A stretch of DNA of 64,000 nucleotides from Escherichia coli (lineage in GTDB: Bacteria > Pseudomonadota > Gammaproteobacteria > Enterobacterales > Enterobacteriaceae). This document shows positions 58,238 to 59,040 of the stretch, one piece after another (position 1 is the stretch's first letter; each line of letters opens with the position of its first letter). A program made the position numbers and the translations under genes. The notes beneath the pieces were generated by a model that was not told the DNA's origin, ran no database searches, and saw only the letters and a list, made by a program, of their open reading frames with translations. The DNA is taken from assembly GCF_048403405.1 (NCBI RefSeq), contig NZ_CP183129.1. One strand, written 5' to 3'.

Positions 58238-58645
58238 ATGACTATGTACGCAAAATCCTTTATCGCTCTTGATGGCAACGGACGTCTGACGGGCGCCCGT
58301 ACTGCACAGGCCGCACCTTATGCTAACTACACCTGCCACTTGTGTGGCAGTGCACTCAGATACCATCCGCAATACGACACTGAACTTCCCTGGTTTGAAC
58401 ACACTGACGACAGGCTGACAGAGCACGGTCAACAGTGCCCTTATGTCAGGCCGGAGCGCAGAGAAATACAGTTGATTAAACGTCTGCAGCAATTCGTACC
58501 GGATGCCTTACCCGTGGTGCGTAAAGCCAGCTGGCACTGCAGACAATGTCACCACGATTATTATGGGGAGCGGTACTGCACACACTGCCAGACCGGAGGA
58601 TTCAGTATTCCCCGGACAACTCAGGAGGAAATATGCGAATTCTGA
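58238..58645 (+). CDS. Cys-rich zinc-ribbon protein, paralog 1
   Basis: 135 aa; CxxCG ... PWFEH ... CxxC pattern. Confidence 0.45.
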   Translation: MTMYAKSFIALDGNGRLTGARTAQAAPYANYTCHLCGSALRYHPQYDTELPWFEHTDDRLTEHGQQCPYVRPERREIQLIKRLQQFVPDALPVVRKASWHCRQCHHDYYGERYCTHCQTGGFSIPRTTQEEICEF

Positions 58646-59040
58646 ACTGTTATATGGCGAATGACAGCAAAGGCCATTTTGTTACGGCGAAAGAAGCAGC
58701 GAAGCACAACCGCCAGGACGTTTTGTGCTGTGTGTCCTGTGGATGCCCGTTAACATTTCAGCGGGGCAATGACGGACAACCACCGTGGTTTGAACATGAC
58801 CAGATGACTGTCGCTGAGAAAATCCTGCTGCGATGCACCTGGCTTGACCCGGCAGAGAAAGAGGCCCGTCGTTTGCATCTGCAGGGTATGACGGTTCCGG
58901 ATTATACGGTGAAGGTGAGAAAGTGGTTTTGTGTGATGTGTGACGAAAATTATGAGGGGGAAAAGTGCTGCCCGAGTTGTGGTACCGGGGTATACAGCAG
59001 GGAGGGGGGGCAGGAGGGCAACTGGAAGGATAGGAACTGA
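58633..59040 (+). CDS. Cys-rich zinc-ribbon protein, paralog 2
   Basis: Start MRILNCYMAND with AGGAGG RBS; same CxxCG ... PWFEH ... CxxC pattern as upstream gene. Confidence 0.45.
   Translation: MRILNCYMANDSKGHFVTAKEAAKHNRQDVLCCVSCGCPLTFQRGNDGQPPWFEHDQMTVAEKILLRCTWLDPAEKEARRLHLQGMTVPDYTVKVRKWFCVMCDENYEGEKCCPSCGTGVYSREGGQEGNWKDRN

What the first reader, a model, noticed from the sequence alone, without database searches (positions are those of the whole stretch)
58238..59040. Tandem paralogous Cys-rich zinc-ribbon genes
Two adjacent 135-aa ORFs share the same architecture (CxxCG, then PWFEH, then further Cys pairs). The second has a strong AGGAGG RBS. Tandem duplication of a small zinc-binding protein next to a YagK/YfjJ-like gene is uncommon; the function is unknown.
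Basis: seen in the sequence. Interest (0 to 1): 0.4.

Follow-up and report, generated by a model that had tools for sequence, protein, structure and literature searches.

The report
Paired zinc-protein genes of genomic islands
Two overlapping genes for small, related zinc-binding proteins are real, but they are a very common and already catalogued part of E. coli genomic islands, always beside the island's excision regulator AlpA and a replication-initiator-like gene, and their function is still untested.

Summary
Two 135-aa ORFs (58238/58244-58645 and 58633-59040, + strand) overlap by 13 nt. They are 31% identical (E 8e-16) and carry CxxC, WFEH and two further CxxC motifs at the same residue positions.

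Both match Pfam DUF7828 plus Zn_ribbon_11. They are identical to RefSeq proteins named 'putative zinc ribbon protein' and 'zinc-ribbon domain-containing protein'.

The pair is not uncommon. It occurs in about 70% of 5,426 complete E. coli genomes, usually twice. It is also conserved, often with the same 13-nt overlap, across Enterobacterales.

Both genes are under purifying selection. The duplication is old.

Outside E. coli the invariant context is an HUH Rep-like gene (YagK/YfjJ, 'inovirus Gp2'), then alpA, then the zinc gene(s), then cargo, in islands with a P4-type integrase. The family is nearly absent from phages and rare on plasmids.

The N-domain is distantly like the zinc finger of the competence nuclease CoiA. 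No solved structure matches the confident AlphaFold model, and I found no literature on the family.

Best guess, inferred only: nucleic-acid-binding accessory factors of island excision, replication or mobilisation. This is catalogued, uncharacterised and of modest interest.

The parts
58238..58645 (+). ZnR-A: 135-aa protein (133 aa from the RefSeq start at 58244) with DUF7828 (a CoiA_N-like zinc finger; candidate ligands C33, C36, H55, C67) and a Zn_ribbon_11 C4 ribbon (C101, C104, C114, C117). RefSeq WP_000270974.1, 'putative zinc ribbon protein'.
58633..59040 (+). ZnR-B: 135-aa paralogue with the same DUF7828 + Zn_ribbon_11 architecture. It evolves faster than ZnR-A. RefSeq WP_001221623.1, 'zinc-ribbon domain-containing protein'.
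58623..58628 (+). AGGAGG Shine-Dalgarno sequence of ZnR-B, inside the 3' end of ZnR-A.
   Evidence: read directly from the sequence
58633..58645 (+). 13-nt overlap between the ZnR-B start codon and the ZnR-A stop codon (ATGCGAATTCTGA). The same 13-nt overlap is present in the Klebsiella, Siccibacter, Superficieibacter and Tenebrionibacter loci, which suggests translational coupling.
57379..57984 (+). YagK/YfjJ-like 'inovirus Gp2 family' gene (RefSeq start 57415). It keeps an HUH motif (HYHLML, 57694-57711) and a YxxK motif (YLAKE, 57916-57930), so it is a Rep-like HUH endonuclease candidate.
55680..55958 (-). AlpA-family regulator/excisionase-like gene (RefSeq uses an internal start and ends at 55886). 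In other genera alpA lies directly upstream of the ZnR genes on the same strand.
54984..55601 (-). Conserved 205-aa hypothetical gene downstream of alpA, with no Pfam hit. In Salmonella and Enterobacillus loci it lies between alpA and ZnR-A.
57015..57218 (-). 67-aa ORF with CxxC...CxxC and a hydrophobic C-terminus, divergent from the Gp2 gene. It is conserved in the E. coli versions of the module.
59324..60943 (+). ISL3-family transposase pseudogene that marks the end of the conserved module. Cargo or IS elements follow ZnR-B in every E. coli locus examined.

Best explanation
What it is (shown). ZnR-A and ZnR-B are two old, diverged paralogues of one small stand-alone protein family. The family has an N-terminal DUF7828 domain and a C-terminal Zn_ribbon_11 domain.
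- DUF7828 is a distant relative of the zinc finger at the N-terminus of the competence nuclease CoiA. Its candidate ligands are CxxC...H...C.
- Zn_ribbon_11 is a C4 zinc ribbon.
- The two genes form an overlapping pair, probably translationally coupled, in the conserved backbone of a CP4-44-like genomic island of E. coli with a P4-type integrase.
- The wider unit is an HUH Rep-like gene (YagK/YfjJ, 'inovirus Gp2'), alpA, then one to three ZnR genes, followed by the variable cargo.

How it most likely works (inferred, not shown).
- The genes are expressed together with, or under, AlpA when the island is activated.
- Each protein binds two zinc ions.
- They act as nucleic-acid-binding accessory factors, possibly as an A/B hetero-oligomer.
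- They would help the island's excision, rolling-circle-type replication or mobilisation machinery (AlpA, integrase, HUH protein) to recognise or process island DNA. By analogy, the related finger in CoiA sits in front of a DNA-processing nuclease.
For: Paralogy and architecture:
- BLASTP E 8e-16.
- DUF7828 scores 107.5 and 106.1 bits against a cut-off of 25.7. Zn_ribbon_11 scores 38 and 64 bits against 24.
- The motifs sit at identical positions.
- The order of secondary-structure elements is the same in the AlphaFold models of both halves.
- All eight candidate ligands are invariant or nearly so in 63 sequences.

Real genes:
- dN/dS is 0.14-0.22 for A and 0.22-0.45 for B.
- The exact sequences occur on about 1,000 or more contigs.

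Old duplication:
- A orthologues are 47-85% identical and B orthologues 28-86%, while A versus B is 22-35%.

Coupling:
- The 13-nt overlap is conserved in five genera.
- A natural 238-aa fusion of two copies exists (P0245).

Linkage to island machinery:
- alpA lies directly upstream on the same strand in nearly all non-E. coli loci. An HUH/YagK_YfjJ_C gene lies beside it.
- This holds even for the most distant family members found among 1.84 billion representatives.
- In L042 a P4-type integrase lies at the far end of the cargo.
- The upstream Gp2 copy keeps its HUH and YxxK motifs.
- No promoter-like or terminator-like site lies on the coding strand across Gp2a-alpA-ZnR-A-ZnR-B-Gp2b in L009.

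Link to CoiA:
- 9 of 63 members hit CoiA_N (best E 1.7e-3) and 10 hit DUF7830 (best E 7.7e-5).
- A Moellerella paralogue has the CoiA-like 'HFFFAH' motif.
- CoiA is a D-loop-resolving PD-(D/E)XK nuclease with a small N-terminal zinc finger (bioRxiv 10.1101/2024.02.06.579203).

Not phage-borne:
- 0 of 50,697 phage records and 2 of 2.9 million viral contigs carry the family.
Against: - No experiment or paper bears on the family.
- The predicted pI is near neutral, about 6.5-7.6 for most copies.
- An A-linker-B fusion model folds each half but has pTM 0.45, so it shows no confident A-B packing. The paired alignment was shallow.
- Islands with a single ZnR gene exist.
- The K-12 islands that carry yfjJ or yagK have no ZnR gene. 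The pair is therefore not obligatory for the HUH gene.
- The CoiA_N hits are all below Pfam's cut-off.
Confidence: 0.4

Rival explanations
1. The pair are transcription factors. Small zinc-finger activators or repressors, working with or downstream of AlpA, would switch island genes (integrase, HUH gene, cargo) on or off. The functional analogy is with the Ogr/Delta zinc-finger late-gene activators of P2/P4-type elements.
For: - They lie in constant position directly after alpA, itself a transcriptional activator.
- They are small stand-alone proteins with no enzymatic domain in any of the 150 best of 289 family representatives.
- They sit at the head of the cargo region.
- From my own knowledge: P4 Delta is itself a tandem duplication of an Ogr-like zinc finger.
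Against: - Ogr_Delta is not among the families listed in the Pfam scans of the window proteins or of the 63 members.
- The model shows no helix-turn-helix or other known DNA-reading motif.
- The analogy is recalled, not tested.
Confidence: 0.25
2. The pair are protein-binding modulators: anti-defence, host-takeover or inter-element conflict factors. They would use zinc-stabilised surfaces to bind a host or competitor protein rather than nucleic acid.
For: - Near-neutral pI.
- ZnR-B evolves fast and the copy number is variable, with chimeric forms, as expected for conflict genes.
- The islands carry antirestriction genes and defence cargo nearby.
Against: - No PADLOC hit.
- The antirestriction/DUF932/RadC block lies on the other side of the island backbone, on the opposite strand.
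- ZnR-A is strongly conserved, with an almost invariant N-terminus across genera. That fits a conserved housekeeping partner of the island better than an arms-race target.
Confidence: 0.15
3. The ORFs are decaying remnants or chance ORFs, with the similarity due to a recent local duplication (an oddity of this strain).
For: - The island is riddled with IS elements and pseudogenes.
- Broken copies of ZnR-B exist in some genomes (L008, L013 and L017; truncated P0183).
Against: - dN/dS is well below 1 for both genes.
- Intact pairs occur in about 3,000 E. coli genomes and in many genera.
- Both proteins give Pfam matches with E about 1e-31.
- The AlphaFold model is confident.
Confidence: 0.02

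Closest known systems
Pfam DUF7828 (PF25165) + Zn_ribbon_11 (PF11682, formerly DUF3279) proteins; RefSeq 'putative zinc ribbon protein' / 'zinc-ribbon domain-containing protein' of Enterobacterales
   Same: Both window proteins are full-length members. They score far above the curated cut-offs and are identical to WP_000270974.1 and WP_001221623.1.
   Different: Nothing differs. This is the family, and it has no known function.
N-terminal zinc finger of competence protein CoiA (Pfam CoiA_N, PF25164) and its sister domain DUF7830
   Same: - The same short pattern: a beta hairpin, CxxC, a strand ending in an aromatic-F-x-H motif, then a further ligand.
- Sub-threshold but recurrent HMM hits (9 and 10 of 63 members).
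- A Moellerella paralogue carries 'HFFFAH' and hits DUF7830.
   Different: - CoiA carries a PD-(D/E)XK nuclease domain and a C-terminal extension (PMC1189080; bioRxiv 10.1101/2024.02.06.579203). The ZnR proteins have only a C4 ribbon after the finger and no nuclease domain.
- The context is different: competence regulon versus genomic island.
E. coli K-12 YfjJ / YagK (YagK_YfjJ_C, 'inovirus Gp2 family') with AlpA in cryptic prophages CP4-57 and CP4-6
   Same: - The upstream gene of the window is of this family (E 1e-47).
- The island backbone is the same: integrase, alpA, HUH-like gene, GTPase, antirestriction, RadC-like, CbtA/CbeA.
   Different: - The K-12 islands have no ZnR gene.
- In CP4-57 the slot between alpA and yfjJ holds yfjI (DUF3987) instead.
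Ogr/Delta zinc-finger transcription activators of P2/P4-type elements (comparison from my own knowledge)
   Same: - Small stand-alone zinc-binding proteins of P4-integrase-type mobile elements.
- Delta of P4 is a tandem duplication of the Ogr unit.
   Different: - Ogr_Delta is not among the families listed in the Pfam scans.
- The proteins differ in size and ligand spacing, and the ZnR family is absent from the phage collection.

Membership tests
Pfam DUF7828 (PF25165) | Whole-protein score above the curated gathering cut-off (25.7 bits) over the full 87-position model | tested here: met
   ZnR-A scores 107.5 bits (residues 4-89) and ZnR-B 106.1 bits (residues 4-89). All 63 aligned relatives match.
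Pfam Zn_ribbon_11 (PF11682) | Score above the 24-bit cut-off, with two CxxC pairs in the C-terminal 35 residues | tested here: met
   38.0 bits for A and 64.4 bits for B. CxxC pairs at residues 101/114 in A and 100/113 in B.
Zinc-binding protein (two sites) | Bound zinc, with tetrahedral Cys/His ligand geometry | not testable with these tools
   Only ligand conservation is shown: C33, C36, H55, C67, C101, C104, C114 and C117 are invariant or at least 90% conserved.
Competence protein CoiA family | CoiA_N zinc finger above the Pfam cut-off (26.3 bits) | tested here: not met
   ZnR-B scores 11.3 bits, E 0.25, and ZnR-A gives no hit. The best among 63 relatives is E 1.7e-3. This is a distant likeness only.
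Competence protein CoiA family | Central PD-(D/E)XK nuclease domain | tested here: not met
   No nuclease family appears in the Pfam scan. The proteins are 135 aa and fully accounted for by the finger and the ribbon.
Ogr/Delta zinc-finger activators | Match to Pfam Ogr_Delta | tested here: not met
   Ogr_Delta is not among the hits for either protein at E <= 1, nor among the 25 families listed for the 63 members.
Known anti-phage defence systems (PADLOC-DB) and phage protein families (PHROGs) | Match to any model | tested here: not met
   No hit for either protein.
YagK/YfjJ 'inovirus Gp2' HUH Rep-like family (upstream gene 57379-57984) | YagK_YfjJ_C above the cut-off, plus an HUH motif and a downstream Tyr motif | tested here: met
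   162.5 bits against a cut-off of 25.8, and a sub-threshold REP_ORF2-G2P hit. HYHLML and YLAKE are present and conserved in upstream-type copies. Catalytic activity is untested.
AlpA family (gene 55680-55958) | Phage_AlpA above the 21-bit cut-off | tested here: met
   24.2 bits. RefSeq names orthologues 'AlpA family transcriptional regulator'.
Hetero-dimeric A/B complex | Confident mutual packing of ZnR-A and ZnR-B | tested here: inconclusive
   The linker-fusion AlphaFold2 model has pTM 0.45. Both halves fold (pLDDT about 85-95) but the model gives no confident overall arrangement. Only 9 paired rows were available. The conserved overlap and a natural fusion protein argue for joint action.

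The most novel reading that the evidence does not exclude
The HUH(YagK/YfjJ)-AlpA-ZnR block is an unrecognised replication or mobilisation module of the commonest class of Enterobacterales genomic islands. In it, the ZnR proteins would be a new class of two-zinc DNA-structure-recognition factors, evolutionarily related to the CoiA finger. They would load or direct the HUH endonuclease, or the integrase, on excised island DNA. The A/B paralogues would form a specificity-determining hetero-oligomer.
Probability: 0.2. Interest if true: 0.55.

Novelty: already known. Interest (0 to 1): 0.28.

Why it matters
These islands (CP4-44, CP4-57 and CP4-6 relatives, and many pathogenicity and fitness islands) sit in most E. 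coli genomes. They carry adhesins, toxin-antitoxin pairs, defence systems and metabolic cargo. How they replicate or move after excision is poorly understood.

A gene pair that is present in about 70% of E. coli genomes, conserved across Enterobacterales, always beside alpA and an HUH Rep-like gene, and absent from K-12 is a reasonable candidate for a missing part of that machinery. Its absence from K-12 probably explains why it has never been studied.

As it stands, the finding adds no new kind of system. It documents a catalogued domain-of-unknown-function family and its conserved neighbourhood.

Tried and rejected
- **Sequence search of PDB.** Single sequences and the 63-sequence profile gave nothing significant; the best hit was E 0.14, to a RanBP2-type finger.
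- **NCBIfam, PHROGs, PADLOC.** No hits for the two proteins. Rfam found no RNA family in 52000-60000.
- **Heterodimer test.** The A-linker-B AlphaFold2 fusion gave pTM 0.45, so it offers no support; the paired alignment was shallow.
- **Hairpin CACTGAC-N10-GTCAGTG (58061-58084) as a Rep nick site or conserved regulatory element.** It is present only in some E. coli loci, and the intergenic fold z-score is -1.3. I dropped it.
- **K-12 pseudogene yoeG as a remnant of the pair.** There is no similarity. The 99-aa ECD_01906 of BL21(DE3) is a truncated ZnR-B.
- **Searching for fusions to enzymatic domains.** None of the 150 best of the 289 relatives among 1.84 billion representatives is longer than 238 aa.
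- **The search for related loci with the mixed A/B alignment.** It failed for lack of a conserved stretch. I redid it with A-type sequences only.
- **Search with the Moellerella DUF7830-like paralogue.** It found only close relatives.
- **Literature.** Searches for DUF3279, DUF7828, PF11682, 'putative zinc ribbon protein', YfjJ/YagK and 'inovirus Gp2 family protein' gave no functional data.

Full report
**1. The observation**

The window holds two + strand ORFs of 135 aa each, at 58238-58645 and 58633-59040. They align over 118 residues at 31% identity, E 8e-16 for the single comparison.
- CxxC at residue 33.
- WFEH at residues 52-55.
- CxxC at residue 101 (A) or 100 (B).
- CxxC at residue 114 (A) or 113 (B).

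AGGAGG lies at 58623-58628, 4 nt before the ATG of the second ORF. That ATG lies 13 nt before the TGA of the first ORF. RefSeq and most orthologues start the first ORF two codons later, at 58244. The upstream gene 57379-57984 is YagK_YfjJ_C, E 1e-47.

**2. What the proteins are**

Both match two Pfam models far above their cut-offs:
- DUF7828: 107.5 and 106.1 bits against a cut-off of 25.7.
- Zn_ribbon_11, the former DUF3279: 38 and 64 bits against 24.

They are identical to RefSeq WP_000270974.1 ('putative zinc ribbon protein') and WP_001221623.1 ('zinc-ribbon domain-containing protein').

In alignments of 21 and 63 relatives, these positions are invariant or at least 90% conserved: C33, C36, W52-F53-E54-H55, C67, W99, C101, C104, G110, C114, C117 and G120. 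That suggests two metal sites, a CCHC site in the N-domain and a C4 ribbon. Zinc binding itself is inferred.

AlphaFold2 with the 63-sequence alignment gives a confident model: pLDDT 88.5 and pTM 0.78. The element order is strand-strand-helix, CxxC, strand, strand (WFEH), two helices, then a three-stranded ribbon. The B copy adopts the same order.

No solved structure resembles the model beyond generic zinc-ribbon pieces, and neither do predicted viral structures:
- Foldseek against PDB gives nothing at E <= 1e-3.
- The best BFVD hit has E 0.03.
- The PDB profile search gives a best E of 0.14.

The one informative remote link is to the N-terminal zinc finger of CoiA.
- Of 63 family members, 9 hit Pfam CoiA_N (best E 1.7e-3) and 10 hit the sister model DUF7830 (best E 7.7e-5).
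- A Moellerella paralogue carries the CoiA-like 'HFFFAH' motif in place of WFEH and hits DUF7830 + Zn_ribbon_11.
- CoiA is a PD-(D/E)XK nuclease needed to resolve the transformation D-loop. [quoted passage not shown]
- The ZnR proteins have no nuclease domain, so they are not CoiA family members.

**3. How common and how old**

- The 1.8-kb block Gp2 + ZnR-A + ZnR-B occurs in 3,806 of 5,426 complete E. coli genomes, with a median of two places per genome. Nearly all are chromosomal.
- The pair alone occurs in 3,818 genomes.
- A scan of one genome per species found the family only in Enterobacterales. The genera were Salmonella, Citrobacter, Enterobacter, Leclercia, Siccibacter, Superficieibacter, Tenebrionibacter, Trabulsiella, Buttiauxella, Serratia, Yersinia, Budvicia, Enterobacillus and Erwinia. 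A few loci carry other labels (three gut-metagenome bins, labelled Collinsella, Bacillota and Clostridiales, and a 'Chryseobacterium' assembly). I take these to be contamination or mislabelling, which I did not verify. Moellerella, Providencia and Klebsiella plasmids also carry it.
- It is absent from 50,697 phage records and present in only 2 of 2.9 million viral contigs. On plasmids it is rare, in 33 of 72,556 records, several of megabase size and probably chromosomal sequence.
- A full HMMER pass over 1.84 billion 50%-identity representatives found only 289 relatives at E <= 1e-3. All of the 150 best listed are 54-238 aa and none is fused to an enzymatic domain.

The tandem arrangement is the rule in most loci. 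The same 13-nt overlap occurs in Klebsiella, Siccibacter, Superficieibacter and Tenebrionibacter.

A-type copies are 47-85% identical between genera and B-type copies 28-86%. A versus B is always 22-35%. The duplication therefore predates the spread of these islands, and B evolves faster.

Both genes are under purifying selection. dN/dS is 0.14-0.22 for A and 0.22-0.45 for B in the informative comparisons.

Variants exist:
- Single-copy loci (L036, L042-44).
- A locus with an A-type gene followed by a 238-aa natural fusion of a ribbon-less copy and a full copy.
- Broken B copies.

**4. Context**

The window is the CP4-44-equivalent island next to cobU and yeeW-cbtA. It is 100% identical to several RefSeq chromosomes.

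In E. coli the order is as follows:
- On the minus strand: Ag43 or dynamin-like genes, a GTPase, and then a 205-aa hypothetical gene after alpA.
- On the plus strand: Gp2, ZnR-A, ZnR-B.
- After that come IS elements or strain-specific cargo.

In other genera all genes are co-directional: Gp2a - alpA - ZnR-A - ZnR-B - Gp2b - DUF2913. The upstream Gp2 copies keep HUH (HYH) and YLAKE motifs. The downstream copies have lost both.

The most distant family members recovered still sit in the order HUH gene - alpA - ZnR - cargo. The cargo includes an ars operon, Kiwa KwaA, a type I restriction enzyme and a SMEK/CTD10/MC6 set. In L042 a P4-type integrase lies at the far end.

alpA is thus the most constant neighbour. 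In K-12 CP4-57, AlpA is the activator of intA and of excision (established knowledge, reflected in the K-12 annotation).

The K-12 segments carrying CP4-44, yfjJ and yagK contain no ZnR ORF. That probably explains the lack of any experimental work: I found no paper on the family.

**5. Mechanism**

Shown:
- Paralogy.
- Domain content.
- Conserved ligand residues.
- Selection.
- Overlap of the two genes.
- Distribution.
- Tight linkage to alpA and an HUH Rep-like gene in integrase-bearing islands.

Inferred:
- The proteins bind zinc.
- They are co-expressed with or after alpA.
- They act on nucleic acid as accessory factors of excision, rolling-circle-type replication or mobilisation, possibly as an A/B hetero-oligomer.

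Against this:
- There is no structural likeness to any DNA-binding domain.
- The pI is near neutral.
- The A-linker-B fusion model has pTM 0.45, which gives no support for a fixed A-B complex, although only nine paired sequences were available.
- The pair is dispensable in islands that have the HUH gene alone.

I put this explanation at about 0.4. The rivals are an AlpA-linked transcription-factor role at about 0.25, a protein-binding conflict or anti-defence role at about 0.15, and 'decaying or chance ORFs' at 0.02. The last is effectively refuted by the selection and conservation data.

**6. Comparison with what is known, and novelty**

The two genes are members of catalogued but uncharacterised Pfam families and are annotated in thousands of genomes. 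They are not members of the CoiA, Ogr/Delta, PADLOC or PHROG families.

The conserved HUH-alpA-ZnR block and the CoiA-finger link are, as far as my searches reach, not described in the literature. They remain observations about context, not a new kind of system. The verdict is: already known as a family, function unknown, modest interest.

**7. What failed**

- The afdb50 fold library was unavailable.
- The hairpin at 58061-58084 is not conserved outside some E. coli loci.
- yoeG of K-12 is unrelated.

Noticed in passing
window 57015-57218 (-): A 67-aa ORF with CxxC...CxxC followed by a hydrophobic C-terminal helix. It is divergent from the Gp2 gene and conserved in all E. coli versions of the module (RefSeq WP_001297900.1, hypothetical protein). 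It gives only sub-threshold zinc-ribbon Pfam hits.
   Followed up: partly
L003 9903-10469; L009 6909-7457; L010 6839-7474; L008 6793-7389: In non-E. coli loci a second Gp2-like gene follows ZnR-B. It has lost the HUH (HYH) and YLAKE motifs that the upstream copy keeps, and it is usually followed by a DUF2913 gene. The HUH gene is thus also present as an intact and a degenerate paralogue.
   Followed up: partly
proteins P0158, P0029, P0141, P0148, P0149, P0170 (database hits): Chimeric ZnR proteins, mostly from one- or two-member clusters. Examples are an N-half of B with a C-half of A, and halves of a third E. coli type ('MNGIKTGLGIT...', '...VLEWHCVMCDKFF...'). They point either to recombination between paralogues or to assembly artefacts.
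   Followed up: no
L039 5001-5717 (also L040, L041): A 238-aa natural fusion of a ribbon-less DUF7828 copy with a full DUF7828 + Zn_ribbon_11 copy, directly after an A-type gene and alpA. The gene upstream of alpA there has no Pfam hit but carries an HUH-like 'HGYHVHAAF'.
   Followed up: partly
window 58061-58084 (+): An inverted repeat CACTGAC-TGTTTTTTAC-GTCAGTG between the Gp2 stop and the ZnR-A start. It is present in L001, L002, L004 and L028 but not in L005 or the non-E. coli loci.
   Followed up: yes
window 59324-60943 (+) and 60987-61211 (+): An ISL3-family transposase pseudogene (internal stop) immediately after ZnR-B, followed by a gamma-glutamyltransferase fragment. The same junction is found in many E. 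coli genomes.
   Followed up: partly
NC_000913.3 (L032-L034): The K-12 MG1655 islands CP4-44, CP4-57 (yfjJ) and CP4-6 (yagK) have no ZnR gene. In CP4-57, yfjI (DUF3987) occupies the slot between alpA and yfjJ. BL21(DE3) ECD_01906 (99 aa) is ZnR-B with only its first 48 residues intact.
   Followed up: yes
L003 4638-5606 (-); L044 2524-3477 (-): A conserved gene of about 320 aa on the opposite strand upstream of the module gives weak, sub-threshold hits to RepB-RCR_reg, a rolling-circle replication regulator. It occupies the same position relative to alpA as yfjH does in CP4-57; I did not test sequence similarity between the two.
   Followed up: no
about window 39925-40300 (L002 11927-12300): The cbtA toxin gene of the island is annotated as frameshifted in the RefSeq chromosome that is identical to this part of the window.
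   Followed up: no
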